DNA from: Alphaproteobacteria bacterium
GTDB taxonomy: Bacteria; Pseudomonadota; Alphaproteobacteria; JASGCL01
Direction: 5' to 3'
Length of the DNA: 64,000 nucleotides
Assembly (NCBI GenBank): GCA_965203915.1
Contig: OZ241918.1
Coordinates: 268,613-332,612 of the forward strand
The translations under genes were made by a program, and so were the position numbers. Below the pieces are notes generated by a model. The model had not been told where the DNA came from. It saw nothing but the letters and a program-made list of their open reading frames with translations, and made no database searches. Below, in pieces: positions 19,240 to 56,401 of the stretch. Numbering within the stretch: position 1 is the first letter of the stretch; every line of letters starts with the position of its first letter.

Positions 19240-19758
19240 ATGACCGATAAAAAATTACCCGCCGAAGCATCACCACCATCATCGCCCCAGTTGTCGCATG
19301 TAACCCCAAGCGGGAAGGCGGCGATGGTCGACGTATCGCAAAAACCCGAAACCGCCCGCATGGCGCGCGCCATGGCACGGGTGGTGATGAAACCCGAAAC
19401 CATTATCGCCATCAAAAATAATAATATAAAAAAGGGCGATGTTTTAACCGTTGCCAAATTGGCGGGCATCAACGGTGCCAAAAAAACATTCGACCTTATT
19501 CCATTGTGCCACCCTTTGGCTTTATCCTACATCGATGTTGATGCAATAATTGACGGCGACCAAGCGGTGGTGATTACCGCCATAACCAAAACATTTGGCC
19601 GCACGGGGGTAGAGATGGAGGCCATGACCGCGGTTAGCGTGGCCGCCCTCACCCTTTACGACATGGTAAAAGCCATCGACAAAACCGCCACCATCACCGA
19701 CATAAAATTGTTGGAAAAATCGGGCGGCAAGTCGGGGCATTCATTATATGAGCCCTAA
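19240..19758 (+). CDS. moaC: Cyclic pyranopterin monophosphate synthase MoaC.
   Basis: LSHVTPSGKAAMVDVSQKPETAR...KGDVLTVAKLAGINGAKKTFDLIPLCHPL...GVEMEAMTAVSVAALTLYDM. Confidence 0.9.
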   Translation: MTDKKLPAEASPPSSPQLSHVTPSGKAAMVDVSQKPETARMARAMARVVMKPETIIAIKNNNIKKGDVLTVAKLAGINGAKKTFDLIPLCHPLALSYIDVDAIIDGDQAVVITAITKTFGRTGVEMEAMTAVSVAALTLYDMVKAIDKTATITDIKLLEKSGGKSGHSLYEP

Positions 19759-19885
19759 CGCTGACGCTACTTGAGGGCGGGTTCTGCCCTAACGCTTCGT
19801 TGCTTCAGGGCGCATTATATTAAGCCCTATCGCTGACGCTACTTGCTAGGCGTTGCCTAGAACCAAGCTTTTACCGCTTCTGGGC
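19750..19885. repeat. Mosaic palindromic repeat element (module A, gccctaacgctgacgctacttgagggc-like, x3, plus module B, ctaggcgttgcctagaaccaagcttttaccgcttctgggctt). The moaC stop codon lies inside the element.
   Basis: Shares modules with the copies at 22655-22810, 24885-24990, 41497-41665, 45362-45400 and 56402-56720. Confidence 0.8.
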
Positions 19886-19940
19886 TTCGGGGGTAATTAT
19901 TTTATTGCTATCCTAGGACGAATCTTTTTATGGTTGGGGA

Positions 19941-20624
19941 ATGACGGGACAAAAACCACAAGCGGAAACAAAACCACAAGGGGAAGTGCAAACCAAGGCG
20001 CAAGGGGCGGGGGCGACCATCATCACCAGCTTGGATGGTTATCTTAGCTGGCTAAAGAAAATTCGTAGTGAAACCCCTTGGACAAAATCTGCATATCGTG
20101 GGGTGGGGTGGGGGGAAGACACCATAGAAAAATTTAAAAACCTGCCAAAATGTTTGTGGAATGGCAAGGGATATGAAGAAAAATATAACTTGCTACAGAT
20201 GCAAAAAGATTTGTTGGCGGAATTTCGTATGGCGGGTCATAGCAAAGACAAAAAACCTGATTTAGAATTATTGGCGGATATTCAACATGTCGAACCCCGC
20301 ACCTGCTTTATTGATTATAGCTTAAATCCCTTGGTGGCGTTGTATTTTGCCTGCCTTGATGATAAAACCAATGGCTTGGTGATAGCTAATGATATTGATG
20401 CAGAATATTTTCGTAATGTGACTATAGATGATATTGATAAAAAAATAGATGATTTTTTTATTGAGAAAGCAAAAGTAGCAGACAATATCGTGTCGCCAGA
20501 ATATCAAAGCAATAAAAAATATTCTTTAGTGAAAGCTTTGCCATGGGTTTGGCAATTACCCACCGCCGACCACCCACCACCCACGCATGATAGCGCAACA
20601 GGCGATAGTGTTGTTTGGTCATAA
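19941..20624 (+). CDS. FRG-domain protein (hypothetical).
   Basis: LADIQHVEPRTCFIDYSLNPLVALYFAC resembles the FRG-domain core (QHyGlPTrLLDwT...AlyFA). The ORF starts just after the repeat element. Confidence 0.5.
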   Translation: MTGQKPQAETKPQGEVQTKAQGAGATIITSLDGYLSWLKKIRSETPWTKSAYRGVGWGEDTIEKFKNLPKCLWNGKGYEEKYNLLQMQKDLLAEFRMAGHSKDKKPDLELLADIQHVEPRTCFIDYSLNPLVALYFACLDDKTNGLVIANDIDAEYFRNVTIDDIDKKIDDFFIEKAKVADNIVSPEYQSNKKYSLVKALPWVWQLPTADHPPPTHDSATGDSVVWS

Positions 20625-21639
20625 CATACCAGATTATGATGAATATTGTTTTATTAACCAAGATAAGAAAAAAGTAATAAGCAATCAATTGGAAGAATTA
20701 TTTGCTATCGATGGCAATAGGCTATTTCCTGATTTTGATGGTCGTGCTAAATATATTGTTGTTATCAAAGACGCCAAATATTATTTTAAACAGGCTAATA
20801 AATTTCTTGAACAAATGGCTTATGAAGAAGCCATCAAGGATTATGATAGGGCGATAGAATTGAACCCGCAATCTGCCAATATCTATAGCAATCGTGGCGT
20901 GGCAAAGAGAAACCTTGGTCATTATGAAGAAGCCATCAAGGATTATGACAAGGCGATAGAATTGAACCCGCAATCTACCGCTGTCTATGTTGTTAATCGT
21001 GGTGATGCGAAGGGCAAACTTGGTCGTCACAAAGAAGCCATCAAGGATTTTGAAGAAGCAATAAGAATAGACCCGCAATATGCCGACGCTTATATTAATC
21101 GTGGCGTGGCGAAGGGCAACCTTGGTCATCACGCAGAAGCCATCAAGGATTATGATGAGGCGATAGAATTAAACCCGCAATATGCCGAAGTCTATGTTAA
21201 TCGTGGCAATATGAAGGACGAACTTGGTAGTTATGACCAAGCCATCAAAGATTATGATAGGGCGATAGAAATAAATCCGCAATATGCCGAAGCCTATATT
21301 AATCGTGCCACTGTGAAGGGTAAACTTGGTCATTATGAAGAAGTCCTCAAAGACTTGGATAAGGCAATAGAAATAAACCCGCAAGATGCCGAAGCTCATT
21401 ATAATCGTGGCTTGGCGAAGGTTGGTCTTAAGCTATATGAAGAAGCCATCAAAGATTATGATAGGGCGATAGAATCGAACCCGCAATTTGCCATGGCCTA
21501 TAATAATCGTGGCTTGCTAAAACAGGATTTGGCGAAGCAGGAAAGGGCGAAGGGTAATGAAGAGCGGGCGCAGGAATTAGGAATATCCGCCGAAGAGGAT
21601 CTTAAAAAACATCGCGAATTGCTCAATGAGCAAAGATAA
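20587..21639 (+). CDS. Tetratricopeptide-repeat protein. About 8 TPR units are encoded by near-identical 102-bp tandem repeats.
   Basis: Repeated AIKDYDRAIELNPQYAEAYINRGVAKGNLGHYEE units; the nucleotide-level repeats are almost identical. Confidence 0.8.
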   Translation: MIAQQAIVLFGHNIPDYDEYCFINQDKKKVISNQLEELFAIDGNRLFPDFDGRAKYIVVIKDAKYYFKQANKFLEQMAYEEAIKDYDRAIELNPQSANIYSNRGVAKRNLGHYEEAIKDYDKAIELNPQSTAVYVVNRGDAKGKLGRHKEAIKDFEEAIRIDPQYADAYINRGVAKGNLGHHAEAIKDYDEAIELNPQYAEVYVNRGNMKDELGSYDQAIKDYDRAIEINPQYAEAYINRATVKGKLGHYEEVLKDLDKAIEINPQDAEAHYNRGLAKVGLKLYEEAIKDYDRAIESNPQFAMAYNNRGLLKQDLAKQERAKGNEERAQELGISAEEDLKKHRELLNEQR

Positions 21640-21659: not shown

Positions 21660-22165
21660 AAACAAAACCAACTTCCCTTGTGTACAAGGGAGGAAGAAAA
21701 TTAACGACACGAAGTGGAGTATAATTTTCAGGTAGGTTAGCGGGGGTTGGCGATGTAAAATATGGCAGGTGAATTTATCAAACGCGTGTTGGCTTACGGC
21801 AAAAATATGGTTGGGTTTGTTCCATTTTTTCTTTTTGCGGGCGGGGAAGGAAGCTAAGCATACTTCCCTTGTGTTACAAGGGAGGAAGAAAATTAACGAC
21901 ACGAAGTGGAGTATAATTTTCAGGTAGGTTAGCGGGGGTTGGCGATGTTAAATATGGCAGGTGAATTTATCAAACGGGGGTTGGCTTACGGCAAAAATAT
22001 GGTTGGGTTTGTTTCACCAAACGGTGTCTAACCTACCCGAAAAATATGGTCGGCTTTGCCTCCCTATTTTTCTCCCTCCCTTGTATCACAAGGGAGGCTG
22101 GCTAGCCCCTCCCTGTTTTTCTTCTTCCCTTATGTCGCAAGGGAGGCTTGACATAAATCCACTCC
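21660..22165. repeat. Non-coding repeat block: a 194-bp direct tandem duplication (about 21664-21857 and 21858-22050) plus four copies of the hairpin motif TCCCTTGTnnnACAAGGGAGG.
   Basis: cttcccttgtgtacaagggaggaagaaaattaacgacacgaagtggagtataattttcaggtaggttagcgggggttggcgatgt... occurs twice. The palindrome also recurs at about 22072 and about 22122. It lies between the convergent TPR gene and mfd. Confidence 0.85.
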
Positions 22166-22196: not shown

Positions 22197-25100
22197 CTAG
22201 CAGAAAGCCTTAAGCAGGGTTTTGCTGGTGGCGACCATTTGGTCGCGGTTGCGGTTGGCGAAATGAAAAATAATTTTTTCGGTGGTGGTTTTGCCGTTTG
22301 TTTCTTTTATCATGCGTGCCTTTTTTTCTTTTAACAATGTTAACAATTTATCGGGGTTTTTGACTTGGTTGTTGTAAAACATGACGCTGGTGCTGTGGGG
22401 CGATATTTTCAATTCGGTCACCCCCGCGGCGTAACATAATTGTTTTAATTCAATCACCGCCAACAGGTTTTTTGTTTCGGGTGGTATAACGCCAAAACGG
22501 TCGGTCAATGATTCCTCGATATTTTTTAAATTTTTTTCATCCACCGATTCCGACAATTCTTTGTATAATGCCAACCGCACCATGTCGTCGGGAATATAAT
22601 CTTCGGGTATGGCAACCGCCAAGGGCAAAACAATATGCGGCGACCAATCACGCAAGATGTTTGTCCTATCGCTGACGCTACTTGAGGGCAAAATATTGGC
22701 CCTATCGCTAACGCTGCTTGCTAGGCTTCGCCTAGAACCAGACTTTACAGCTTCTAGGCTTGAGGGGACATTATCATTCGCCCCACCTTTTTCCCCTACC
22801 GCTTCGCTGCTCGAGGGCGCGCGGGTGATTTCCAAATCTTTGGCGGATAATTTGGCAATTTCTGCCATCACCATTTTTTGGTATAGTTCAATGCCGACCT
22901 CCCTCACATGGCCCGATTGTTCTTCGCCCAACAAATTGCCCGCCCCCCGCATATCCAGGTCGTGGCTGGCAAGCAAAAACCCCGCCCCCAAGTGGCTTAA
23001 ATCATCCAACAATTCTAATCTTTTTTTGGCATTTTTTGTTATGACTTTATCTTTGGGGTAAGTGATAAAACAATAACCCTGGCGGTTGCCACGCCCCACC
23101 CGCCCGCGTAATTGATACAATTGCGCCAACCCAAATTGGTCGCCGTGAAAAATAATCATGGTGTTGACATTGGGCAAATCCAAACCGCTTTCAATGATAT
23201 TGGTCGACAACAACCCATGATATTTCCCGTCGGCAAAATCGGTCATGGCTTGGTCAATATCCTCGCTCGGCATTTGGCCATGGGCCATGGTGATATTCAT
23301 ATCGGGAATAAGTTCGTGCAATGTTTTGTGAATGGTCGCCAATTGGTTAACCCGCGGTGCCACCAAAAAAATTTGCCCGCCGCGCGCCATTTCGTTGGCG
23401 ATAACCCGTTTCAAATCAAACGGGTTTAAATGCGCCACCATGGTTTTAATCGGCAACCGCCCAGGCGGCGGCGTGGCGATAAGCGACAGATCCTTGATAC
23501 CATGCAACGACAATTGCAAACTGCGCGGTATGGGGGTGGCACTCATCGATAACAAATGAACATTTTTTGCCAATTCGCGGGCGCGTTCTTTTTGTTTAAC
23601 GCCGAAGTGATGTTCCTCATCCACCACCACCAGTCCCAAATTTTTTGGCGCGATGGAACGGTGCAACAAACCATGGGTGCCGATAACAATATCAACCCCC
23701 CCCCGCGACAATTCTTCTTTGGTTTTTTTAATATCGCTGGTGGTAACAAAACGCGACATTTGTTTAATACGCACCGCAAAATTTTTAAAACGTTTCACAA
23801 AATGTTGATAATGTTGCCGCGCCAACAATGTCGTGGGAGTGATAACCAAAACCTGTTTGCCCGCCATCACCGCGCAAAAACTGGCGCGCAACGCAACCTC
23901 GGTCTTGCCAAAACCAACATCGCCGCAAATCAATCGGTCCATCGGGCGTTCCTGCGCCAAATCATTTTTGACGATATTGATGGCTTGCTCCTGGTCGCGC
24001 GTTTCGGGGTATGGAAACAATGACGCAAATTCTAAATAATCGCTGTCTTTGGGTATTAAAGATTCCGCCTTAATCGTTTGGCGCAAAGCGGCGTTGCGCG
24101 CCAACTTGGCCGCCAATTCTTTTATCCGCGCGCGGGTTTTGGCCACGCGGGCTTGCCAATCGGCCGAACCCAATTTATCCAATATATTATCCAACGGCGG
24201 CGCGGGGTCGGGCAAATCGCCGTAACGCTGTAACCTATCCAAATTTTCTATCGGCAAATATAATTTGTCGCCACCGCGATAACTTAACGACACGCAATCG
24301 TGAATTTGCCCGCCCGCGGTAATGGGTTTTAACCCCAAAAATTGTCCAATGCCATAATCCAAATGGGTAATCAAATCGCCTTTTTTTAAAGTGGTAATAT
24401 CCTTGATTAATTTTTCGATGGTCGATTTGCTGTTTTTGCCAGTAAGGGGCGGCGCCCATTGAAATTCCACCTGAAAAATATCGTGGTCGGTAATAATATC
24501 AATATTATTATTTTCGCCGCGCCAACTTTCGCCATGTTGCAATGGCAACACCGCCAGCAAAATTTTTTTTACGCCATCTTCTATTACCTCATCTATATTT
24601 TTTTTGTTTTCTGGGGTCGACCTATTGGCTTCCAAAACAATCACGGGCGGCAATGTATCATCGGTCAATAATTTTTGCCAACGGTGCAGGCTGGCGATGT
24701 TATGCGCGGCTATCAAAATACTATGCGGTGATTTTTTTATCATCGCCAACAATTTTTCTTGGAATGTTTCGTCGGGCGCGTCGGCGTTATTTTTTGCACC
24801 CAACACGGCGTTGTTCACCGCCCGTCGCGCCTGAACCACGTGGGTGGTAATAAATTCTTGCCAATTGGGCATGTTATTTTCTCCCATCGCTTCGCCGCTT
24901 GCTAGGCTTCGCCTAGAACCAGACTTTACAGCTTCTAGGCTTGGGGGCATGTTATTTCCCCCCATCGCTTCACTGCTTAAGGGTGCGGTATGGGACGAGG
25001 CAAGGCGACCAGCGGGCAGGGGAACGACGGGCATTGAGGTAGCGGATGTAAGATGGGCAGCCTCATTCATTTTTTCATGGATGCAAAAAAAATCTTTTAT

Positions 25101-26237
25101 TTTTTGTTGCCAGGATTCGACCGACAAAGAAGATTTTTCAGGCGGCAACGGCGGATAAATAAAATGGTTGGGATTTTTTTTATGTTCTTGTTTTTTAATG
25201 GCAAATTCTTCTTGTCGCTCCTCATAATCCTTTTGCTTGATGGCAAATTGTTGGCTTATTTCGGTGGCGGCGCGCCCGTGAAAAAAGAACAAAAAGTCGT
25301 CATGCAAATAATCAAAAAAATAACAACATGAATCAAAAAACAAAGGATAATAATATTGCAGATCGTTTTGGGTTAATACATTGTTAGAAAAAATTTCGCC
25401 AGGCAAAGACAAAGAAAATTCTTCGCGCATGTTGTTTAAAAATTTTTTCTGGCTTGCGGTATCAAGCGGTATTTCCGATATAGGCAAAATATTAACCACC
25501 TCTATTTTTTCCAAATTTTTTAACCGCCGTTGGTCCAGCGGCGAAAAATAATTTATCTGTTCTATTTTATCGCCAAAGAAATCTATCCGAATGGGCATGG
25601 CTTGCCCTTGGTTGGACGATAAATTCATGATGGGGAAAATATCAATAATCCCGCCGTGGCGCACCATGTCGCCGAATGTTCGAACCTCCGCCGTGGTTTC
25701 ATAACCCATTGTTATTAAATTTTTTAACAATGCTGCCATGTTGTAATCCTCACCCGTTTTTATTGACAATATTTTTTGTGCAAAAAAGGAAGGCGGCGCA
25801 ATAGGGGCCAGCAACGCAGCGTAGCAAGTGACAACCGCGAAGTTAGCGTGGTTTTGTTGTAATGCGAATAAAGTCAGGGCGCGTTCGCGGATAATATCGG
25901 GGTTGTCGTCAAACGGCAGGAAAGAAAAAATTGTTAGATGCGGGCGATGAAACAACAACCATTGTTTTTGCATCAACATTTCCTGTTGGTCGCGACAAAC
26001 AATGACCAATTTTTTTTTATTTGTTTCGTTGCTGGCCAAACGCGCCAACAACCCCGCCATGGCCAACGGTGGGGGAGATGCCCCGCCAAGCGTTTGATTA
26101 TGAGCGTCCCCAAATTCCTCCACCAACCCCGAAACCAAAGTAATGTCATGCGAATTATCTTTGCCAATTTTTTTTCTAAAATCTTGGAAATGCTGGTCGA
26201 TGATATTTTCAGCCGTGAAAAAAATATTGCGGGTCAT
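22197..26237 (-). CDS. mfd: Transcription-repair coupling factor Mfd (1346 aa), carrying two in-frame insertions of the palindromic repeat element.
   Basis: UvrB-homology N-terminus, RecG-like helicase motifs (GDVGFGKTEVALRA, DEEHHFGV, SATPIPRSL), TRG motif and a C-terminal TRCF domain. The inserts encode ...PSLEAVKSGSRRSLASGEAMG... and ...SSLEAVKSGSRRSLASSVSDR.... Confidence 0.92.
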   Translation of the reverse strand: MTRNIFFTAENIIDQHFQDFRKKIGKDNSHDITLVSGLVEEFGDAHNQTLGGASPPPLAMAGLLARLASNETNKKKLVIVCRDQQEMLMQKQWLLFHRPHLTIFSFLPFDDNPDIIRERALTLFALQQNHANFAVVTCYAALLAPIAPPSFFAQKILSIKTGEDYNMAALLKNLITMGYETTAEVRTFGDMVRHGGIIDIFPIMNLSSNQGQAMPIRIDFFGDKIEQINYFSPLDQRRLKNLEKIEVVNILPISEIPLDTASQKKFLNNMREEFSLSLPGEIFSNNVLTQNDLQYYYPLFFDSCCYFFDYLHDDFLFFFHGRAATEISQQFAIKQKDYEERQEEFAIKKQEHKKNPNHFIYPPLPPEKSSLSVESWQQKIKDFFCIHEKMNEAAHLTSATSMPVVPLPAGRLASSHTAPLSSEAMGGNNMPPSLEAVKSGSRRSLASGEAMGENNMPNWQEFITTHVVQARRAVNNAVLGAKNNADAPDETFQEKLLAMIKKSPHSILIAAHNIASLHRWQKLLTDDTLPPVIVLEANRSTPENKKNIDEVIEDGVKKILLAVLPLQHGESWRGENNNIDIITDHDIFQVEFQWAPPLTGKNSKSTIEKLIKDITTLKKGDLITHLDYGIGQFLGLKPITAGGQIHDCVSLSYRGGDKLYLPIENLDRLQRYGDLPDPAPPLDNILDKLGSADWQARVAKTRARIKELAAKLARNAALRQTIKAESLIPKDSDYLEFASLFPYPETRDQEQAINIVKNDLAQERPMDRLICGDVGFGKTEVALRASFCAVMAGKQVLVITPTTLLARQHYQHFVKRFKNFAVRIKQMSRFVTTSDIKKTKEELSRGGVDIVIGTHGLLHRSIAPKNLGLVVVDEEHHFGVKQKERARELAKNVHLLSMSATPIPRSLQLSLHGIKDLSLIATPPPGRLPIKTMVAHLNPFDLKRVIANEMARGGQIFLVAPRVNQLATIHKTLHELIPDMNITMAHGQMPSEDIDQAMTDFADGKYHGLLSTNIIESGLDLPNVNTMIIFHGDQFGLAQLYQLRGRVGRGNRQGYCFITYPKDKVITKNAKKRLELLDDLSHLGAGFLLASHDLDMRGAGNLLGEEQSGHVREVGIELYQKMVMAEIAKLSAKDLEITRAPSSSEAVGEKGGANDNVPSSLEAVKSGSRRSLASSVSDRANILPSSSVSDRTNILRDWSPHIVLPLAVAIPEDYIPDDMVRLALYKELSESVDEKNLKNIEESLTDRFGVIPPETKNLLAVIELKQLCYAAGVTELKISPHSTSVMFYNNQVKNPDKLLTLLKEKKARMIKETNGKTTTEKIIFHFANRNRDQMVATSKTLLKAFC
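22655..22810. repeat. Palindromic repeat element copy (module A x2 + module B) inserted in-frame in the mfd CDS.
   Basis: cctatcgctgacgctacttgagggc...ccctatcgctaacgctgcttgctaggcttcgcctagaaccagactttacagcttctaggcttgagggg. The plus-strand ORF 22609-23061 is the opposite-strand reading of this element. Confidence 0.85.
24885..24990. repeat. Second palindromic repeat element copy (module B + partial module A) in-frame in the mfd CDS.
   Basis: ccgcttgctaggcttcgcctagaaccagactttacagcttctaggcttggggg...atcgcttcactgcttaagggtgc. Confidence 0.85.
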
Positions 26238-26558: not shown

Positions 26559-26634
26559 TGGTAGGCCTGGCAGGAATCGAACCTGCGACCAAACCGTTAT
26601 GAGCGGTCCGCTCTGACCCCTGAGCTACAGGCCT
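26559..26634 (-). tRNA. tRNA-Met (anticodon CAT). Elongator-type acceptor stem; tRNA-Ile2 (lysidine) cannot be excluded.
   Basis: Reverse complement AGGCCTGTAGCTCAGGGGTCAGAGCGGACCGCTCATAACGGTTTGGTCGCAGGTTCGATTCCTGCCAGGCCTACCA: 7-bp acceptor, D-arm GCTC/GAGC, anticodon loop CTCATAA, GTTCGATTC T-loop, encoded CCA. Confidence 0.85.
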
Positions 26635-26694
26635 ATCAAGAAAATGATTAGAGCATGCCGCTTAAAAATTCAAGCGGCAATACGATTGAAAGGA

Positions 26695-27000
26695 TTATTT
26701 TATAATATAAAATATTTCATCGAATTCTATCGGGTCGAAAAGCCCCAGGTAACGCCGACCATCTGTTTTGCCGCTGGCTAAATAACAATTGCCTGGGGTT
26801 AACTGCACGCGTTTTACATTGATACGATTGCTCAAAACATTAATAAGGTCGCGCATCGATTGACGTTCGGACGCCTTGCCCTTGCATAGGTAGGATAACA
26901 TTTTGCCTTCTTGGCCAGCCTCCAACTGTTCGCGAGCGGACAGGTTATGCCCGAGGGTGAGGGAAAGGATAAGGGCGAGGCAAATAAAATATTTTTTCAT
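26695..27000 (-). CDS. Small secreted hypothetical protein (101 aa, signal peptide, 3 Cys).
   Basis: MKKYFICLALILSLTLGHNLSA signal-peptide-like N-terminus; good SD context; adjacent to tRNA-Met and the peptide array. Confidence 0.5.
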   Translation of the reverse strand: MKKYFICLALILSLTLGHNLSAREQLEAGQEGKMLSYLCKGKASERQSMRDLINVLSNRINVKRVQLTPGNCYLASGKTDGRRYLGLFDPIEFDEIFYIIK

Positions 27001-27244
27001 GGGTGATTAAGGTTAAGCTAGTCGATAGGTTTTTTTGAGTGGTAAGCCATGATAATGGCATGGGTAAATTGCCTTACGGCATATTGTCAAACCCTGTTAT
27101 TTATAATTTTTATATTATCAAAAATAGCCGCGCGAGTCAAAAGAAAAATCCCTGGCTGCGTAGGATGAAAGGTAATAAAAAAGGCACCTGTTTAAACAAC
27201 AGATGCCTACAAAAAATAAATTTTTTGTTAATGAAAAAAATGAA

Positions 27245-27421
27245 TTACATTTTCATCATTTTTTCGCATTTTTTCATCATTTTTTGGTCAGCGGCACTCA
27301 TGGATGCTTTATCCATTTTCATCATTTTGTCGCAATTTGCTTTGTTGACTTCGCCTTCGCTCGCCATAACAGCCGAGGTAAGAAGCAAGCCAGTGATCAT
27401 GGCGAAAGATAATTTTTTCAT
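27245..27421 (-). CDS. Small secreted Met/Lys-rich two-cysteine peptide, array copy 1 (58 aa: signal peptide + about 38-aa mature peptide).
   Basis: MKKLSFAMITGLLLTSAVMA|SEGEVNKANCDKMMKMDKASMSAADQKMMKKCEKMMKM; AAGGA SD 7 nt upstream; own hairpin terminator downstream. Confidence 0.65.
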   Translation of the reverse strand: MKKLSFAMITGLLLTSAVMASEGEVNKANCDKMMKMDKASMSAADQKMMKKCEKMMKM

Positions 27422-27630
27422 GATTGTTTCCTTTTCTATATATAAATTAGGATGTTGCGATAGGCGAAATTGCCAATCAATCCCCCTATAGGCTAATTTT
27501 AATTTTTTTGCAATATAATTTTGAATCGTTTGCTTGTTTTCCTATAGTATATTTTTGGTTCATAGTATTGGCGAATCTTGCGGTGGTTTGTTCGGGGCAA
27601 GGTTGGTCGGCGCGCCAAAAAATGGAGCAA

Positions 27631-27664
27631 TAAAAAAGGCATCTGTTTAGAAAAACAGATGCCT
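27631..27664 (-). terminator. Rho-independent terminator of peptide-gene copy 2 (perfect 12-bp stem aggcatctgttt/aaacagatgcct followed by a T-run on the minus strand).
   Basis: Identical copies at about 28088-28121 and 28545-28578. Variants at about 27176-27208 (copy 1), 28911-28947 and 29378-29413. Confidence 0.75.
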
Positions 27665-27701
27665 TCAAAAAATAAACTTTTTTGTTAATCAAAAAAACGA
27701 A

Positions 27702-27878
27702 TTACATTTTCATCATTTTTTCGCATTTTTTCATCATTTTTTGGTCAGCGGCACTCATGGATGCTTTATCCATTTTCATCATTTTGTCGCAATTTGCTTT
27801 GTTGACTTCGCCTTCGCTCGCCATAACAGCCGAGGTAAGAAGCAAGCCAGTGATCATGGCGAAAGATAATTTTTTCAT
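27702..27878 (-). CDS. Small secreted Met/Lys-rich two-cysteine peptide, array copy 2 (identical to copy 1; the 457-bp unit is repeated).
   Basis: Identical 457-bp unit (ORF-track duplicates 27682-27948 and 27943-28149 match copies 1 and 3). Confidence 0.65.
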   Translation of the reverse strand: MKKLSFAMITGLLLTSAVMASEGEVNKANCDKMMKMDKASMSAADQKMMKKCEKMMKM

Positions 27879-28158
27879 GATTGTTTCCTTTTCTATATAT
27901 AAATTAGGATGTTGCGATAGGCGAAATTGCCAATCAATCCCCCTATAGGCTAATTTTAATTTTTTTGCAATATAATTTTGAATCGTTTGCTTGTTTTCCT
28001 ATAGTATATTTTTGGTTCATAGTATTGGCGAATCTTGCGGTGGTTTGTTCGGGGCAAGGTTGGTCGGCGCGCCAAAAAATGGAGCAATAAAAAAGGCATC
28101 TGTTTAGAAAAACAGATGCCTTCAAAAAATAAACTTTTTTGTTAATCAAAAAAACGAA

Positions 28159-28335
28159 TTACATTTTCATCATTTTTTCGCATTTTTTCATCATTTTTTG
28201 GTCAGCGGCACTCATGGATGCTTTATCCATTTTCATCATTTTGTCGCAATTTGCTTTGTTGACTTCGCCTTCGCTCGCCATAACAGCCGAGGTAAGAAGC
28301 AAGCCAGTGATCATGGCGAAAGATAATTTTTTCAT
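28159..28335 (-). CDS. Small secreted Met/Lys-rich two-cysteine peptide, array copy 3 (identical).
   Basis: Identical 457-bp unit. Confidence 0.65.
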   Translation of the reverse strand: MKKLSFAMITGLLLTSAVMASEGEVNKANCDKMMKMDKASMSAADQKMMKKCEKMMKM

Positions 28336-28615
28336 GATTGTTTCCTTTTCTATATATAAATTAGGATGTTGCGATAGGCGAAATTGCCAATCAATCCCCC
28401 TATAGGCTAATTTTAATTTTTTTGCAATATAATTTTGAATCGTTTGCTTGTTTTCCTATAGTATATTTTTGGTTCATAGTATTGGCGAATCTTGCGGTGG
28501 TTTGTTCGGGGCAAGGTTGGTCGGCGCGCCAAAAAATGGAGCAATAAAAAAGGCATCTGTTTAGAAAAACAGATGCCTTCAAAAAATAAACTTTTTTGTT
28601 AATCAAAAAAACGAA

Positions 28616-28774
28616 TTACATTTTTTGGCATTTTGCCATTGTTTTTTGTTGCGCAGGAGTCAATGAGGCTTTGTCCATTTTCATCAACTTATCGCATTTG
28701 GCGTTCATGTTGCCAGCAGAAGCGCTAGCGGCAAGAACCAAAGCAATAGCGATCATGAGAGATATTTTTTTCAT
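28616..28774 (-). CDS. Small secreted two-cysteine peptide, diverged array copy 4 (52 aa).
   Basis: MKKISLMIAIALVLAASASA|GNMNAKCDKLMKMDKASLTPAQQKTMAKCQKM; own terminator hairpin at about 28911-28947 downstream of copy 5. Confidence 0.6.
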   Translation of the reverse strand: MKKISLMIAIALVLAASASAGNMNAKCDKLMKMDKASLTPAQQKTMAKCQKM

Positions 28775-29007
28775 GAGGTATACTCCTTAGTTTTGTTAAG
28801 ATTGTTACGACCGACGGGATTGCCAGGCGTAGGAATGATGTAAAGCAATTGTTGAGGCGTAGCAACTTGTATTATCGCTAACTTGCTACCAATTATAAAA
28901 AATGGCTAAATAAAAAAGACATCTGTTTTAATAAAAAACAGATGTCTTTAAAAATAAATTTTTTTTATTGTGCGGGCGTCAATAGTGTCTTACCCATTTG
29001 TGTCAGT

Positions 29008-29238
29008 CTATTGCATGTGATGTCGATGTCGATGTTGGTGTCGCCAGCGGCAAGAATCATGGCAACAACAATCACGGTCAATCATTTCTTCGCATTTTTC
29101 TATTGTTTTTTGTTGTGCGGGCGTTAATAAATCTTCGTCCATTTTCATTAACCTATCGCATTGGGCTTTCATGTTGTCAGCCGAAGCATTGGCGACAAGA
29201 ACCAAAGCAATAGCTGGCATGAGAGATAATTTTTTCAT
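29008..29238 (-). CDS. Small secreted two-cysteine peptide, diverged copy 5. The C-terminus reads through into a degenerate remnant of another copy (Cys/His-rich tail).
   Basis: MKKLSLMPAIALVLVANASA|DNMKAQCDRLMKMDEDLLTPAQQKTIEKCEEM followed by IDRDCCCHDSCRWRHQHRHRHHMQ; the 28960-29100 region is a decayed copy. Confidence 0.5.
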   Translation of the reverse strand: MKKLSLMPAIALVLVANASADNMKAQCDRLMKMDEDLLTPAQQKTIEKCEEMIDRDCCCHDSCRWRHQHRHRHHMQ

Positions 29239-29445
29239 GAGGTATATTTCTTATAGTTTTGCTAAGATTATGACGAATGACAAGTTTATCATTCGGATAA
29301 GTTATGCAAGTTAATTTTTGAAGCACAGCAAGTTATGCTATCACTGATTTACTAACCATTATAAAATATTGGAAAATAAAAAAGGCATCTGTTTTAAGAA
29401 AAAACAGATGCCTTCAAAAATAAACTTTTTGCTAGAAGTTAAATA

Positions 29446-29631
29446 TTATAGTTTTGCTTTTTTGCAATCTTCTAAATATTTTTTATCTTCTGGAGTCATG
29501 GTGGTTGTGCCAGCAGTATCCAATAGTTTCAATTGGTCGCACTTGGCTTTGTCAACCTTGGCAGCTTGGGCAGCAACCGCGGATGAAGTGATAATAAAGG
29601 TCAGAGCTAAAAGAGCAAAGATTTTTTTCAT
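29446..29631 (-). CDS. Small secreted two-cysteine peptide, diverged copy 6 (61 aa).
   Basis: MKKIFALLALTFIITSSAVA|AQAAKVDKAKCDQLKLLDTAGTTTMTPEDKKYLEDCKKAKL; same C-D-K/Q-L-x-x-x-D ... K/D-C-K/E-K architecture. Confidence 0.55.
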   Translation of the reverse strand: MKKIFALLALTFIITSSAVAAQAAKVDKAKCDQLKLLDTAGTTTMTPEDKKYLEDCKKAKL

Positions 29632-30065
29632 GTTCGTTTCTCCTTTCATGAGTAAAAACGATTGTAAATAAAAAATGTTCCAAACATTATTGTCTGGAAC
29701 ATTTTCGAATATAAACTCTTTTCTTTTTAAGGTCAAGCAAAGTAGGAAATTTTTTTTATTAAATCGAAATTTTAAAAAAATTTTGCATTTTTAGACAAAA
29801 AATAGATATTTATTCTTGAATTTCCTCGATTCGCTACTTTCTATTTACTTAATTACTATTTGCGCTGTATTTTGCATTTTATTTCTGTTTTTGCTAGGTT
29901 TTTTATCGGTTTTTTATTGGTGATATTACGCGTTTGGATTACGCTTATGGGTGGCGCGCGAAGACAAATTTATGTAGCGAATGGCAAAATGGTGCGGGTT
30001 GGCAACCATGAAAGGGTGGGCGTTGGAAAAAGCCACGCACACAATATTTTTATAGTGTAAAAAAA

Positions 30066-41505: not shown

Positions 41506-41665
41506 GCTTCGCCTAGGTGCTGCGCACCGCAACTTTCTAGGCTGCGCCTAGAACCAAGCTTGTTATTTTGGAGTCGAGGGCGAAATGCACCCCGACACCG
41601 TGCTTGATGAAAGGCTTTTTCTCTCTCCATCGCCAAACAGTTCGGTTCTAGGGCTTGCCCTAGCT
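41497..41665. repeat. Repeat cluster at the maeB 3' end. Forward module B (ctaggcttcgcctag...ctaggctgcgcctagaaccaagcttg) and an inverted module copy (ggttctagggcttgccctag) flank a duplicated 45-bp fragment of maeB.
   Basis: 41568-41612 (ggagtcgagggcgaaatgcaccccgacaccgtgcttgatgaaa) is near-identical to maeB 41216-41260. Confidence 0.8.
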
Positions 41666-45524: not shown

Positions 45525-46472
45525 GTGGGGTTTTTTATATGGTGGCTGTATTTTATCATGGGACAAGGTTATAACAACTCTTCAAAACTAGATTACACCA
45601 AACCTTTTTTATCAGTTGATGGCCAGCTCGCGCTTATAAAATCAAGGGGACTTGTGGTAGGTGATGACAATGAAGCAAAACATTATCTTAAAACTATAGG
45701 TTATTATCGTTTAAGCGGTTATTGGTATCCTTTCCGTAAAGAAGCTAGCGAATATTTTATAAATGGCACAAAATTTTCTGATATTGTTGAATTGTATGCT
45801 TTTGATAAAAAATTAAGGCTGATTGTTTTAGATGCGATTGAAAGAATAGAGGTTGCTGTTAGGGTAGCTATGGTTTTGTCTTTAGGCAAAGATAATCCTT
45901 TTATACATTTAAGTAGTAATATATTTTTTAATGAAAATAATTACAAAGAATGGAAAGAACATTTTGATAAAAAATATAAATCTTCTAAGCAACCATGGTT
46001 TATGACCGCAAATAAAAAATATAAAGAATTGCCAATTTGGATGGTGATAGAAACATGGGATTTTGGGTTGTTATCTTATTTCTTTTCGGGTTTAAATTCT
46101 AAATATAAAGATATTATAAGTGGCAATTATGGTGTGGATCCTACTGTATTAAAAAATTGGTTAGCAAGTATCAATGAGATAAGAAACATATGCGCTCATC
46201 ATCAACGATTATGGAATTTTTCATTAAACAACGTAGTAAAAACACCAAAAAACTTACCTGATATGGATAATATTAGAACCAATCAAGCGGCAAGAGTCAA
46301 AATATACGCTACATTAATCATCATACAATTTTTATTAAAAAAAATTAATCCCACCACAAAATGGCATCAAAGATTAAAAGAACATATGAATCAATTTCCT
46401 AATAATCCTAACATTCATATTCAGCAAGCTGGCTTTCCTCAAGCTTGGCATAAAGAAAAAATTTGGCAATAA
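45525..46472 (+). CDS. Abortive-infection phage-resistance protein, AbiD/AbiF family (Abi_2).
   Basis: YRLSGYWYPFR and IRNICAHHQRLWN hallmark motifs. The gene is markedly AT-rich with Asn/Lys/Ile-rich codon usage, unlike its flanking genes. Confidence 0.8.
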   Translation: MGFFIWWLYFIMGQGYNNSSKLDYTKPFLSVDGQLALIKSRGLVVGDDNEAKHYLKTIGYYRLSGYWYPFRKEASEYFINGTKFSDIVELYAFDKKLRLIVLDAIERIEVAVRVAMVLSLGKDNPFIHLSSNIFFNENNYKEWKEHFDKKYKSSKQPWFMTANKKYKELPIWMVIETWDFGLLSYFFSGLNSKYKDIISGNYGVDPTVLKNWLASINEIRNICAHHQRLWNFSLNNVVKTPKNLPDMDNIRTNQAARVKIYATLIIIQFLLKKINPTTKWHQRLKEHMNQFPNNPNIHIQQAGFPQAWHKEKIWQ

Positions 46473-54847: not shown

Positions 54848-56401
54848 ATGTTACATACCATTACCAATCAAGAAGAATTTTTGAACCATTACAACAATGG
54901 GCAAGATGCCTTGTTGTGTTGTCAATTATCTATCGACACCATCACCCCCGTGGCGGCGGTGATGAAATTGCAACATGCTTCGCGCCATTTGTTTTTGCTG
55001 GAATCGGTTGAACAGGGCAAAACCCGCGCCCGTTATTCTTTTTTGGGATGGCAACCGATATTGTTGTGGGAAGCCCGCGGCGGCGAAGTGTTTCATCGCG
55101 ATGGTGACGAAGCCCCATGGCAAAAAATGGCAAGCAAAGAAAAAACCAACCCGCTGGATGACCTGCATGATATTCTCAATCGTCATGCTATCCATTTTCC
55201 TGCGGGGTTGCCCGCGGCGGCCTCGGGGTTTTTTGGTTTTTTAAGTTACGACGCGGTGCAGATGATTGAAAAAATCCCACCGCATCGCGAAGACCCACAT
55301 CATTTGCCCGATGGTCGGTATTTTTTGCCCAAGCAAATATTGATATTTGATAATGCCACGGACAAGGCTTCCTTGGTCGTGCGTTGCCAATATAAAAAAG
55401 ACACCACGGCGCAGGATGCTTTGCTTGCCACCCAAAAAACCATCAATGACACGCTGGAAACCTTGCGCCAATCATTGCCCGCCAACACGGCGCGCGCCCA
55501 CGCGGCGGTTGCCGCTCCGCAACAACCCAAACACCTAACGCCTGAGGGCGACTACCTAACCGCCGTGAAAAAAACCATCGACTATATCAAGGCGGGGGAT
55601 ATTTTCCAAGCAGTCATCAGCCAAGTTTTTGAATATGATAACCCGCATGGTTCGCCCCTTAATTTTTATCGCGCCTTACGCGCCACCAACCCCGCGCCCT
55701 ACATGTTTTTCTTTCAATGGGAAGATTTTGCCTTCGCGGGGGCCAGCCCCGAAACCCTGGTCAAGGTTGAAGATAAAAAAATGTCAGTCTACCCCATTGC
55801 GGGCACGCGCCGCCGTGGCACCACCGAGGATGAAGATAAAAAATTGGCAGAAGAATTGTTGGCCGACCCGAAAGAACGCGCCGAACATTTGATGTTGCTC
55901 GACCTGGGGCGGAATGATGTCGGCAGGGTAGCCGAAATAGGAACGGTCAAGGTTGTTCAAGAATTTCAAGTCGAGCGTTATGCGTTTGTTATGCATTTGG
56001 TGTCGGAAGTCATGGGGCAATTGGCAAAAGATAAAAGCAGTTTGCAAGCATTATGCGCGGGCATGCCCGCGGGCACCGTGTCGGGCGCGCCAAAAATTCG
56101 CGCCATGGAAATTATTGCCGAATTGGAAAAAACCCGCCGCGGATTATACGCGGGGGCGGTGGGATATTTTTCCAGCAAATTAAACAGCGACAAAACAAAA
56201 GAAGATTTTGTCAACCAAGCCGACATGGACCATTGCATTGCCTTGCGCTGCGCCTTGCTCAAAGCCGACAAAGTCACCATTCAAACGGGGGCGGGTATTG
56301 TTTACGATTCGGTGCCCGAAAAAGAACAGGAAGAATGTTTGAACAAAGCGCGTGCATTATTCAAAGCCTTCGACCGTGCTCACGAATTCTCAGGCAATTA
56401 A
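54848..56401 (+). CDS. trpE: Anthranilate synthase component I.
   Basis: LLESVEQGKTRARYSFLG, chorismate-binding core GAVGYFS..., ...IQTGAGIVYDSVPEKEQEECLNKA. Confidence 0.92.
   Translation: MLHTITNQEEFLNHYNNGQDALLCCQLSIDTITPVAAVMKLQHASRHLFLLESVEQGKTRARYSFLGWQPILLWEARGGEVFHRDGDEAPWQKMASKEKTNPLDDLHDILNRHAIHFPAGLPAAASGFFGFLSYDAVQMIEKIPPHREDPHHLPDGRYFLPKQILIFDNATDKASLVVRCQYKKDTTAQDALLATQKTINDTLETLRQSLPANTARAHAAVAAPQQPKHLTPEGDYLTAVKKTIDYIKAGDIFQAVISQVFEYDNPHGSPLNFYRALRATNPAPYMFFFQWEDFAFAGASPETLVKVEDKKMSVYPIAGTRRRGTTEDEDKKLAEELLADPKERAEHLMLLDLGRNDVGRVAEIGTVKVVQEFQVERYAFVMHLVSEVMGQLAKDKSSLQALCAGMPAGTVSGAPKIRAMEIIAELEKTRRGLYAGAVGYFSSKLNSDKTKEDFVNQADMDHCIALRCALLKADKVTIQTGAGIVYDSVPEKEQEECLNKARALFKAFDRAHEFSGN

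What the first reader, a model, noticed from the sequence alone, without database searches (positions are those of the whole stretch)
26650..29740. Tandem array of small secreted Met/Lys-rich two-cysteine peptide genes, each with its own terminator, adjacent to tRNA-Met
Six minus-strand genes encode 52-61-aa precursors (20-aa signal peptide plus a mature peptide of about 32-41 aa). Copies 1-3 sit in three 100% identical 457-bp units. Copies 4-6 are diverged but keep the architecture signal|...K-A-x-C-D-K-L/M-M-K-M-D...(T/S)P-A-Q-Q-K-T-M-x-K-C-x-K-M. A seventh decayed copy is fused to copy 5. The mature peptide of copies 1-3 is 11/38 Met (MMKM, KMMKK, KMMKM motifs) with exactly two Cys about 22 residues apart. 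This resembles Met-rich periplasmic Cu(I)/Ag(I)-binding motifs, or a secreted effector or bacteriocin-like family. Every copy has a perfect 12-bp-stem hairpin terminator (AGGCATCTGTTT-loop-AAACAGATGCCT + T-run). The block, together with a 101-aa secreted protein, lies directly beside tRNA-Met(CAT), a classic insertion hotspot. I do not recognise this family as described. Identical units imply recent amplification or gene conversion, and possibly variable copy number.
Basis: seen in the sequence. Interest (0 to 1): 0.8.

Follow-up and report, generated by a model that had tools for sequence, protein, structure and literature searches.

The report
Amplified array of small methionine-rich periplasmic peptides
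A small-genome, uncultured alphaproteobacterium carries a real, fast-changing tandem array of genes for tiny exported two-cysteine peptides, many very rich in methionine and lysine; the family has not been described, occurs only in this narrow lineage, and most likely supplies bulk periplasmic protection, though its function is untested.

Summary
Six intact minus-strand genes of 52-76 aa plus one decayed copy sit between an Asp/Glu racemase gene and a 101-aa secreted protein. A stretch of 1383 nt (27242-28624) is exactly periodic at 457 nt. Each unit has its own terminator, and these terminators show compensatory changes across lineages.

Corrections:
- The mature copy 1-3 peptide has 9/38 Met, not 11/38.
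- The tRNA(CAT) looks like tRNA-Ile2, not tRNA-Met.
- The block is not an island. The same gene order (Liv transporter, racemase, 1-6 peptide genes, roughly 100-aa partner, tRNA, SdhE, Mfd) appears in every relative found.

The family is tiny. About 13 protein clusters turned up among billions of proteins, and it matches no Pfam, NCBIfam or PDB entry. The peptides are predicted helix-turn-helix hairpins with two invariant Cys 22-25 residues apart. Met-rich (16-31% Met) and Met-poor (0-8%) paralogs occur together.

Copy number differs between close relatives: 3 identical units here, 1 in a strain about 99% identical, and a chimeric fusion in a sister species.

A new finding is that nearly every unit (5 of 6 here) carries a covarying stem-loop at the start of its 5' leader. 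The partner protein has a PepSY-like fold.

The closest functional analogue is the MrpX/MXKDX methionine-rich periplasmic oxidant sink, but homology tests failed. The proposed function, a stoichiometric thioether buffer, is inferred and not shown.

The parts
26559..26634 (-). tRNA with anticodon CAT, probably tRNA-Ile2 (lysidine) rather than tRNA-Met. It is a conserved neighbour, not an insertion site.
   Evidence: ARAGORN and Rfam tRNA at 69 bits. The best E. coli matches are the three tRNA-Ile(GAU) genes at 79-80% identity, with no tRNA-Met match. The tRNA sits at the same position in L006.
26695..27000 (-). 101-aa secreted partner protein with a PepSY-like fold and two invariant Cys (C39, C72). 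It lies immediately downstream of the array in every lineage.
27182..27208 (-). Terminator of copy 1 (diverged version S', with one G.U pair)
   Evidence: covariation
27245..27421 (-). Copy 1: 58-aa precursor, Met-rich type A
27454..27483 (-). 5'-leader stem-loop of copy 1
   Evidence: CM R1 hit, 22.6 bits; covariation
27242..28624 (-). Stretch that is exactly 457-nt periodic (3.03 units). Each unit holds terminator S, a promoter-like region, the leader stem-loop and the type-A gene. The junction lies in AAAATGTAATTC, a sequence shared by the 3' ends of copy 4 and copies 1-3.
   Evidence: single-unit allele in L001
27635..27666 (-). Terminator of copy 2
27702..27878 (-). Copy 2, identical to copy 1
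27911..27940 (-). 5'-leader stem-loop of copy 2
28092..28123 (-). Terminator of copy 3
28159..28335 (-). Copy 3, identical to copy 1
28368..28397 (-). 5'-leader stem-loop of copy 3
28549..28580 (-). Terminator of copy 4 (version S)
28616..28774 (-). Copy 4: 52-aa precursor, type B, with a strong AAGGAG ribosome-binding site
28804..28833 (-). 5'-leader stem-loop of copy 4
   Evidence: CM R1 hit, 23.3 bits
28915..28949 (-). Terminator after the decayed copy 7. Its stem carries a compensated G-C to A-U change.
28965..29081 (-). Decayed copy 7: a signal-peptide-like stretch plus CNRLTQMGKTLLTPAQ*, truncated
   Evidence: profile hit; DNA repeats D3 and D12
29008..29238 (-). Copy 5: 76 aa, type B. 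It has lost its own stop codon and terminator and reads out of frame into copy 7. Its ribosome-binding site is degraded, so it is probably decaying.
   Evidence: the same arrangement is present in L001
29274..29295 (-). Leader hairpin of copy 5 (CGAATGA...TCATTCG), at the position homologous to the L008 hairpin but with different stem bases
   Evidence: read
29381..29415 (-). Terminator of copy 6
29446..29631 (-). Copy 6: 61-aa precursor, Met-poor type C (1 Met in 38)
   Evidence: the L008 orthologue gives dN/dS 0.47
29674..29703 (-). 5'-leader stem-loop of copy 6: a 10-bp stem with loop AAUAAU, followed by a U-run
   Evidence: CM R1 hit, 29.7 bits. In L008 the stem is conserved and the loop has changed.
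29708..29736 (-). Sigma-70-like promoter of copy 6 (TTGACC-17-TATATT), identical in L008

Best explanation
What is shown. The locus encodes a lineage-restricted family of Sec-exported mini-proteins. Each has a signal peptide of about 20 aa and a mature part of 30-45 aa. Each gene is a self-contained expression unit, in this order: sigma-70-like promoter, a stem-loop at the very 5' end of the transcript, a ribosome-binding site, the ORF, and an A-tract/hairpin/U-tract terminator. The mature peptide is predicted to be a helix-turn-helix hairpin. Its two invariant Cys lie on facing helices, so a periplasmic disulfide staple is likely. One face is hydrophobic and the rest is Lys/Asp/Glu-rich. The array expands and contracts by unequal homologous recombination between the conserved 3' ends and terminators of neighbouring paralogs.

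What is inferred. The Met-rich paralogs (types A and B, 16-31% Met, 29-50% charged) act stoichiometrically in the periplasm as a thioether-rich buffer. The most likely role is a sacrificial sink for oxidants (HOCl, peroxides) that would otherwise oxidise envelope proteins. This would be functionally analogous to, but not homologous with, MrpX/BcrX. Because such a sink is consumed one molecule at a time, dosage matters. That would explain the stabilising 5' stem-loops, the separate strong terminators, and the recent 1-to-3 amplification of the most Met-rich gene. The Met-poor type-C paralog and the PepSY-like partner probably serve a different or accessory role on the same scaffold; that role is unknown.
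For: Anatomy:
- ORFs, signal peptides and the exact repeat.
- Terminators: 12-bp stem, 5 pairs with compensatory changes across lineages.
- 5'-leader stem-loop: 86% of cells paired, 7 of 9 pairs with double changes, 0 of 500 shuffles reach this, and slid controls give about 40%. The model finds it only in the array units across 115 kb. It starts within about 10 nt of the predicted -10 box.
- Helical hairpin model, pLDDT 78.
- Invariant C, D and C columns across 15 sequences.

Real genes:
- Homologues at E = 1e-10 in other lineages.
- dN/dS of 0.31-0.47.

Dynamics:
- Single-unit allele in L001.
- Chimeric gene in L008.
- An assembly gap inside the L002 array.

Functional analogy:
- MrpX is described as a small signal-peptide protein with 20% Met and 44% charged residues that is sacrificially oxidised in the periplasm (PMC4436054).
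- UPEC c3568 has 17% Met, 40% charged residues and two Cys.
- The members here have 16-31% Met and 29-50% charged residues, against a 2.7% Met background.
Against: - No msrPQ, sigF/nrsF or any redox or copper gene lies within 64 kb. mrpX-type genes are operonic with msrPQ (PMC4436054, PMC8315932).
- There is no ECF16-type promoter in the array.
- There is no sequence relationship to MXKDX proteins.
- Every well-sampled array (7 of 8 lineages recovered; L006 has only Met-rich members) also keeps a Met-poor paralog (0-8% Met) with the same scaffold. In it, the Met positions hold Leu, Val, Ile or Ala. Methionine may therefore be just the hydrophobic residue of the hairpin interface.
- No expression, localisation or chemistry data exist.
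Confidence: 0.3

Rival explanations
1. Periplasmic Cu(I)/Ag(I) sponge or chaperone. The MMxM and MxxM thioether clusters on the two helices, possibly with the two Cys and the invariant Asp, would bind soft metal ions. Amplification would then raise buffering capacity, as SilE/PcoE do.
For: - Met-rich composition with MMKM and KMMKM motifs and two conserved Cys.
- Thioether-only Met motifs bind Cu(I)/Ag(I) in Ctr1, CusF and CopK (own knowledge).
- SilE is a periplasmic 'molecular sponge' (PMC5008109).
- Gene-dosage changes are typical of metal stress (own knowledge).
Against: - No cop, cus, pco or sil genes, P-type ATPase or multicopper oxidase lie in the window or in related loci.
- The peptides almost completely lack His and Trp, which SilE, PcoE and CusF use.
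- Met-poor paralogs are conserved.
- In an oxidising periplasm the Cys pair is more likely a disulfide.
Confidence: 0.2
2. The scaffold matters, not the methionine. These would be small cationic amphipathic hairpins that bind an envelope component or a partner protein through a flexible hydrophobic face, acting as a periplasmic holdase, adaptor or envelope stabiliser. The partner could be the adjacent PepSY-like protein. Met would be one acceptable hydrophobic residue among several.
For: - Met, Leu, Val, Ile and Ala interchange at the same alignment columns, and Met-poor members are always present.
- The PepSY-like gene is invariably adjacent in 9 of 9 loci, and both families are confined to the same clade.
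- Net charge is 0 to +6.
Against: - Adjacency within a narrow clade where the whole neighbourhood is syntenic is weak evidence for a functional link.
- This reading does not explain 24-31% Met, which is 10-fold above background.
- It does not explain why the most Met-rich paralog is the one amplified.
Confidence: 0.2
3. Exported antimicrobial, killer or host-directed effector peptides (bacteriocin-like). The roughly 100-aa neighbour would act as an immunity or helper protein.
For: - The peptides are small, cationic, amphipathic and disulfide-containing, with rapid diversification and copy-number change.
- The genome is small and carries in-frame repeat insertions, which hints at a host-associated lifestyle.
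Against: - A Sec signal alone leaves the peptide in the periplasm of a diderm (BamA is present).
- No dedicated exporter, double-glycine leader, modification enzyme or typical immunity gene is present.
- No PHROG or PADLOC similarity.
- The neighbour is itself secreted and PepSY-like.
Confidence: 0.1
4. The three identical units are an assembly artefact, or the ORFs are non-functional remnants.
For: - Perfect identity over 1383 nt.
- A related short-read contig shows one unit.
- Copy 5 and copy 7 are clearly decaying.
Against: - The source contig is a 1.63-Mb single piece.
- The single-unit contig differs by about 1% and carries a Ser-to-Thr change, so it comes from a different strain rather than the same DNA collapsed.
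- The family is conserved, with intact ORFs, ribosome-binding sites, Cys residues and cis-elements, across lineages whose peptides are about 50% identical.
Confidence: 0.05

Closest known systems
MrpX / BcrX / UPEC C3568: methionine-rich periplasmic peptides (NCBIfam TIGR02953, pentapeptide MXKDX repeat protein)
   Same: Both are small and carry a Sec signal peptide. Both are about 17-30% Met and about 40-50% charged residues, and C3568 also has two Cys. Both reside in the periplasm, where a stoichiometric, sacrificial role is plausible (PMC4436054, PMC8315932, PMC8550376).
   Different: - No detectable homology: hhalign probability 0.4-1.3%, and TIGR02953 is not hit except once at E = 0.016.
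- No MXKDX repeats.
- Here the peptide is a structured two-helix hairpin with Cys spaced 22 residues, against a 5-residue spacing in C3568.
- The genes are not in an msrPQ operon and have no ECF16 (SigF/BcrS) promoter.
- The genes form a tandem multi-copy array of monocistronic units, with Met-poor paralogs alongside.
SilE / PcoE periplasmic metal 'sponges' and Met-motif Cu(I) binders (CusF, CopK, Ctr1 Mets motifs)
   Same: They are exported, Met-rich and helical when loaded, and buffer metal stoichiometrically (PMC5008109; the rest is own knowledge).
   Different: SilE and PcoE are about 140 aa, His-rich and disordered, and sit inside sil/pco operons. The peptides here are 30-45 aa with almost no His, a conserved Cys pair, and no metal-resistance genes nearby. 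No homology.
PsiF repeat (Pfam PF07769; E. coli PsiF, function unknown)
   Same: Both are periplasmic units of about 34 aa with two Cys about 21-23 residues apart. Both are Lys/Gln-rich and share an S-L-T-P-x-Q-Q-K-M-x-x-C motif, as in copies 4 and 5.
   Different: The Pfam PsiF_repeat model hits PsiF at 8.7e-34 but none of the peptides here. hhalign gives 3.8% probability over 14 columns. The register is ambiguous. PsiF is not Met-rich and not arrayed.
PepSY domain proteins (YpmB, YpeB, FoxB periplasmic domain, UipA), for the 101-aa partner
   Different: No Pfam PepSY hit. It has a conserved disulfide pair and its own N-terminal AREQLxxGxEGK motif. It is confined to this clade. Its function is unknown.

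Membership tests
MXKDX-repeat Met-rich peptide (MrpX/BcrX, TIGR02953) | Match to the TIGR02953 profile, or detectable homology to a bona fide member | tested here: not met
   UPEC C3568 hits TIGR02953 at 8.8e-9. The window peptides give no hit at E <= 10, and the best relative reaches only 0.016. hhalign against C3568 gives probability 1.3% and 0.4%.
MXKDX-repeat Met-rich peptide (MrpX/BcrX, TIGR02953) | Encoded in an operon with msrP/msrQ (yedYZ) and controlled by an oxidant-responsive regulator (ECF16 SigF/BcrS or OrhKR) | tested here: not met
   No molybdopterin oxidoreductase, cytochrome b or ECF sigma genes lie in the 64-kb window or in related loci. The one GTAAC-N-CGAA match in the window is at chance level and lies far from the array. 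The rest of the genome could not be searched.
MXKDX-repeat Met-rich peptide (MrpX/BcrX, TIGR02953) | Signal peptide, about 20% Met and about 40% charged residues | tested here: met
   Types A and B have 16-31% Met and 29-50% charged residues, with an AxA cleavage site. The type-C paralogs do not meet this (0-8% Met).
MXKDX-repeat Met-rich peptide (MrpX/BcrX, TIGR02953) | Met residues oxidised in vivo by HOCl and re-reduced by MsrP | not testable with these tools
   Needs experiments.
Periplasmic Cu(I)/Ag(I) binders (SilE/PcoE, CusF, CopK) | Homology to a known family, or location in a cop/cus/pco/sil locus | tested here: not met
   No Pfam, NCBIfam or PDB sequence hits. No metal genes nearby.
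Periplasmic Cu(I)/Ag(I) binders (SilE/PcoE, CusF, CopK) | Measured Cu(I)/Ag(I) binding | not testable with these tools
   Needs ITC or competition assays on the mature peptide.
PsiF repeat (PF07769) | Match to the PsiF_repeat HMM | tested here: not met
Genomic island at a tRNA gene | Presence/absence polymorphism at the tRNA between relatives, an integrase, and direct repeats of the tRNA 3' end | tested here: not met
   The same gene order appears in all relatives. No integrase ORF is present. No tRNA-end repeat was found. The low GC (34-36%) is explained by AT-rich spacers and Lys/Met codons.
Integron-like cassette array | IntI integrase and attC sites with an RYYYAAC/GTTRRRY core | tested here: not met
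   No integrase. The 3' palindromes are canonical terminators with U-tracts, and each unit has its own promoter.
PepSY domain (partner protein) | PepSY fold | tested here: met
PepSY domain (partner protein) | Match to Pfam PF03413 | tested here: not met
   No Pfam family at E <= 10.

The most novel reading that the evidence does not exclude
This is a previously unknown periplasmic stress module confined to one lineage of small-genome Alphaproteobacteria. It would consist of disulfide-stapled Met-lined helical hairpins (the Met-rich types), a Met-poor paralog, and a dedicated PepSY-like protein. A family-specific 5'-leader RNA stem-loop (loop AAUAAC) would control or stabilise all the units together. 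Dosage would be tuned on short evolutionary timescales by recombination between the conserved terminators. In this reading it is a new, structured solution to the same problem that MrpX or SilE solve, evolved independently.
Probability: 0.2. Interest if true: 0.65.

Novelty: new variant of a known kind. Interest (0 to 1): 0.5.

Why it matters
If the Met-rich hairpins are sacrificial oxidant or soft-metal buffers, they would be an independent, structurally distinct reinvention of the MrpX or SilE idea. They would work without a linked repair or efflux operon, and their protective capacity would be visibly tuned by copy-number change between near-identical strains. That would give a compact system, 38-aa peptides that can be synthesised, for studying how thioether-rich surfaces protect the bacterial envelope.

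It also adds a clean natural example of array expansion and contraction through terminator-mediated unequal recombination, and a new covarying 5'-leader RNA element.

If methionine turns out to be merely structural, the finding is a lineage-specific orphan family of modest general interest.

Tried and rejected
1. Curated libraries. Pfam, NCBIfam, PHROGs, PADLOC and PDB sequence searches on the precursors, the mature peptides and the partner gave only signal-peptide-level noise.
2. Rfam at gathering and at permissive thresholds found only the tRNAs.
3. Two JGI metagenome scans (the partner profile and the CDKxMKMD DNA pattern) found no relatives, only chance matches.
The partner alignment found one sister MAG.
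6. An ECF16/SigF promoter search was at chance level.
7. PsiF and MrpX homology was tested by hhalign and rejected.
8. I tried to learn the organism name and sample origin from cluster names, contig look-ups and accession searches in the literature. All gave nothing. Only 'MAG: Alphaproteobacteria bacterium' is known, plus a mislabelled 'Hydrotalea sp.' MAG.
9. A sigma-54 reading of the TGGCAAT leader motif was rejected by inspection because the GG/GC spacing is wrong.
10. An integron-cassette reading of the 3' palindromes was rejected: there is no integrase, the hairpins are canonical terminators, and each unit has its own promoter.
11. P0006 (364 aa), which shares a cluster with the 51-aa peptide, is an unrelated high-GC protein and a clustering artefact.

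Full report

Yes. On the minus strand between 26.6 and 29.8 kb the ORF list shows three identical 58-aa ORFs (27245-27421, 27702-27878, 28159-28335). It also shows a 52-aa ORF (28616-28774), a 76-aa ORF (29008-29238) and a 61-aa ORF whose ATG at 29631 follows AAAGGAG (29446-29631). A 101-aa ORF lies at 26695-27000. ARAGORN and Rfam place a tRNA with anticodon CAT at 26559-26634.

Tandem Repeats Finder gives a 457-nt period, 3.2 copies and 99% matches. A direct comparison shows the sequence is exactly periodic at shift 457 from 27242 to 28624, which is 3.03 perfect units.

Six terminator-like hairpins lie on the minus strand, one after each unit, against 3.9 expected in shuffles.

A decayed seventh copy at about 28965-29081 shows up as a profile hit and as DNA repeats. 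Copy 5 has lost its stop codon and terminator and reads into it out of frame.

All precursors have an MKK n-region, a hydrophobic core and an AxA-type cleavage site. The intact mature peptides have exactly two Cys, 22 residues apart (25 in copy 6).

- The mature copy 1-3 peptide has 9 Met in 38 residues (24%), not 11.
- Copy 5, at 76 aa, falls outside the stated size range.
- Copy 1's terminator has a G.U pair.
- Copy 5 has no terminator of its own.

Nine Met in 38 is still extreme against the 2.7% Met of 24 neighbouring proteins (P = 7e-7).

**2. Are these real genes, and how widespread is the family?**

No Pfam or NCBIfam model matches. A word-indexed search of 5.8 billion clusters found only the window's own proteins and one variant.

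An exhaustive HMMER search of 1.84 billion representatives found six further proteins of 57-65 aa. All have the same architecture: a signal peptide, then K-A-x-C-D-x-x-M-K-M-D...M-M-K-K-C-x-K-M-M-K-M. Their E-values run from 1e-11 to 3e-6. A second search with the enlarged alignment brought the total to 13 clusters. JGI metagenomes held none.

The invariant columns across 15 mature sequences are Cys, Asp and Cys.

Between the window and a sister MAG (L008; dS about 0.2), copy 6 has dN/dS 0.47. Copy 4 against copy 5 gives 0.31. For comparison, the partner gives 0.14 and the racemase 0.03. The counts are small.

So the genes are under purifying selection but evolve faster than their neighbours.

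**3. Genomic context: a conserved locus, not an island**

Every contig that carries a family member shows the same order: LivK-H-M-G-F-type ABC transporter, Asp/Glu/hydantoin racemase, one to six peptide genes, a 101-117-aa secreted protein, the tRNA, SdhE, Mfd. All are on one strand.

There is no integrase, and there is no presence/absence polymorphism at the tRNA. The 34-36% GC of the block, against about 46% around it, fits AT-rich spacers plus Lys/Met codons.

The tRNA's best E. coli matches are the three tRNA-Ile(GAU) genes at 79-80% identity. No tRNA-Met gene matches. It is therefore probably tRNA-Ile2, read as Ile after lysidine modification. ARAGORN cannot make that distinction.

The surrounding 64 kb is ordinary core genome: ClpX, Lon, TrxB, FolP/K, Gmk, MltG, FabF, allantoicase, TrpC, MoaC, BamA, malic enzyme, SSB, YchF, TIM, MutS.

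**4. Array dynamics**

- A Logan contig from run SRR13639655 (L001) is 98.7-99.0% identical to the window. It runs uninterrupted from copy 5/7 through copy 4, a single 58-aa gene (with a Ser-to-Thr change) and into the 101-aa gene. This is a one-unit allele.
- The sister MAG L008 (partner protein 96% identical) has only two genes. One is the copy-6 orthologue. The other is a 55-aa chimera whose 5' half matches copy 4/5 and whose 3' half matches copy 1.
- A more distant MAG (L002) has at least four genes, with an assembly gap inside a duplicated one.
- In the window, the perfect repeat begins and ends in AAAATGTAATTC. This sequence is shared by the 3' ends of copy 4 and copies 1-3. The terminator region after copy 4 is identical to that after copies 2 and 3, while the one after copy 1 is the diverged version.

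This is what unequal crossing-over between the homologous 3' end and terminator segments of neighbouring paralogs would leave, followed by further slippage on the 457-nt repeat. The recombination mechanism is inferred from sequence. The polymorphism itself is observed.

**5. Anatomy of one unit**

*Terminator.* The 3' module is conserved across lineages: TAA, a T-run, AACAAAAA, TTATTTTT, a hairpin, then a U-run. Of the 12 stem pairs, five show changes on both sides that keep pairing. These are genuine intrinsic terminators.

Almost every unit, in all three paralog types and in most lineages, carries a stem-loop 40-60 nt upstream of the ATG. The stem is 7-11 bp, the closing pairs are often GGC/GCC, and the hexaloop is close to AAUAAC.

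On a 12-sequence alignment, 86% of cells pair and 7 of 9 pairs show double changes. None of 500 shuffles reaches the observed values, and sliding the partner column drops pairing to 31-43%. One caveat applies: I set the register by the loop motif, which favours the structure somewhat.

A covariance model finds the element only in the array units across 115 kb.

Where a good sigma-70-like promoter is visible, the stem starts within a few nucleotides of the expected transcription start. Examples are TTGACC-17-TATATT before copy 6, identical in L008, and TTGACA-16-TATAGT in L002. The likeliest role is a 5'-terminal stabiliser or a shared regulatory handle. This is an inference.

**6. The peptides**

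AlphaFold2 on the mature type-A peptide, with 13 aligned sequences, gives helices at 7-14 and 23-35 with a short turn between them (pLDDT 78). Fold search with so small a hairpin is uninformative.

Cys10 and Cys32 lie on the two helices. The residues 3-4 positions from them (M13/M14, M28/M29, M35/M36) fall on the same faces. In the Met-poor paralogs these columns hold Leu, Val, Ile, Tyr or Ala.

So part of the methionine is simply the hydrophobic seam of a hairpin that is probably stapled by a disulfide in the periplasm. The disulfide is inferred.

Three old paralog types recur:
- Type A: ...EG-VN..KAxCD..MKMD...MMKKCEKMMKM.
- Type B: G-D/N-M-x-AKCDK..., with a short C-terminus.
- Type C: Met-poor, CDQ-L/V-KQ-x-D...CKKAGM or CKKAKL.

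Arrays usually hold at least one Met-rich and one Met-poor member. L006 is the exception, with only Met-rich members.

**7. The partner**

The co-occurrence holds in 9 of 9 loci. However, the whole neighbourhood is syntenic, so a functional link is only suggested.

**8. What does it do?**

Nothing here measures function.

The nearest described concept is the methionine-rich periplasmic peptide MrpX of Azospira. It is described as a signal-peptide protein with 20% Met and 44% charged residues that is oxidised sacrificially by hypochlorite and re-reduced by MsrP (PMC4436054). Homologues are BcrX in Brucella (an 'MXKDX repeat protein', PMC8315932) and C3568 in UPEC (PMC8550376).

I retrieved C3568 from the CFT073 record. 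It has 17% Met, 40% charged residues and two Cys, and it hits TIGR02953 at 8.8e-9. The peptides here do not hit that model, and hhalign finds no relationship. Nor is there an msrPQ operon or an ECF16 promoter nearby.

So this is not an MrpX family member. Its composition, compartment and size do fit a stoichiometric thioether buffer. A consumable or titratable product would make sense of the dosage changes and of the units built for high expression.

I rank the readings as follows:
- Oxidant sink: 0.3.
- Cu(I)/Ag(I) sponge: 0.2. The peptides almost completely lack His and no metal genes are nearby.
- 'Scaffold, not methionine' partner- or envelope-binding hairpin: 0.2. It is favoured by the Met-poor paralogs and disfavoured by the tenfold Met excess and by amplification of the most Met-rich gene.
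- Exported toxin or effector: 0.1.
- Artefact or junk: 0.05.

A local look-alike, the PsiF repeat (S-L-T-P-Q-Q-Q-K-M-x-x-C, two Cys 21-23 residues apart), failed both HMM and profile tests.

**9. Verdict**

It is partly wrong: the block is not a tRNA-Met-linked island.

The thing is a lineage-restricted, rapidly rearranging array of monocistronic units for exported two-Cys helical-hairpin mini-proteins. It comes with a new covarying leader stem-loop and a PepSY-like neighbour. It is a new sequence family within a known kind, the small Met-rich periplasmic peptides. Its function remains to be shown.

Noticed in passing
window 22648-22774, 24867-24978 (inside the Mfd ORF 22197-26237); also 19737-19899, 41528-41590, 56390-56433: Dispersed 44-63-nt repeat elements are present. 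Two copies sit in frame inside the mfd gene and encode 'SLEAVKSGSRRSLAS' twice. One of these insertions is missing from the Mfd orthologue of the sister MAG L008. They therefore behave like mobile in-frame elements, reminiscent of Rickettsia palindromic elements.
   Followed up: partly
window 26559-26634: The tRNA that ARAGORN calls tRNA-Met(CAT) matches the E. coli tRNA-Ile(GAU) genes best (79-80% identity) and matches no tRNA-Met gene. It is probably the lysidine-dependent tRNA-Ile2.
   Followed up: partly
window 19941-21639 and 21683-22016: An FRG-domain gene and a TPR-repeat gene (GC 38-43%, with internal 102-nt repeats) lie between moaC and mfd, along with a 142-nt direct repeat. In the related contig L002, moaC directly follows mfd. 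This looks like a lineage-specific insertion.
   Followed up: no
window about 29771-29897 (upstream of the copy-6 promoter); + strand ORF 29816-29923: A non-coding block is nearly 100% identical to the sister MAG, while flanking DNA is about 83% identical. It overlaps a 35-aa very hydrophobic ORF on the opposite strand. It could be a small membrane protein, an sRNA or a regulatory region.
   Followed up: no
window 29008-29081 (3' part of copy 5): The read-through tail of copy 5 (DRDCCCHDSCRWRHQHRHRHHMQ) is Cys- and His-rich. It arises from reading the decayed copy-7 signal-peptide region out of frame. The identical arrangement is present in the strain about 99% identical (L001), so it is not a sequencing error.
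   Followed up: partly
L002 (GCA_030054115.1, contig JASGCL010000023.1): A MAG labelled 'Hydrotalea sp.' (Bacteroidota) carries a 20-kb contig that is syntenic gene for gene with this alphaproteobacterial window. The contig or the MAG is misbinned or mislabelled.
   Followed up: no
L006 1163-1408: In one lineage an extra 81-aa lipoprotein gene (lipobox ISGC) sits between the peptide genes and the PepSY-like gene.
   Followed up: no
window 45525-46472: An Abi_2 (abortive-infection-like) gene lies in a 38% GC patch between tpiA and a deaminase gene.
   Followed up: no
window 56584-56705: A perfect-looking tandem duplication of a 61-nt unit (97% identity) lies in an intergenic region.
   Followed up: no
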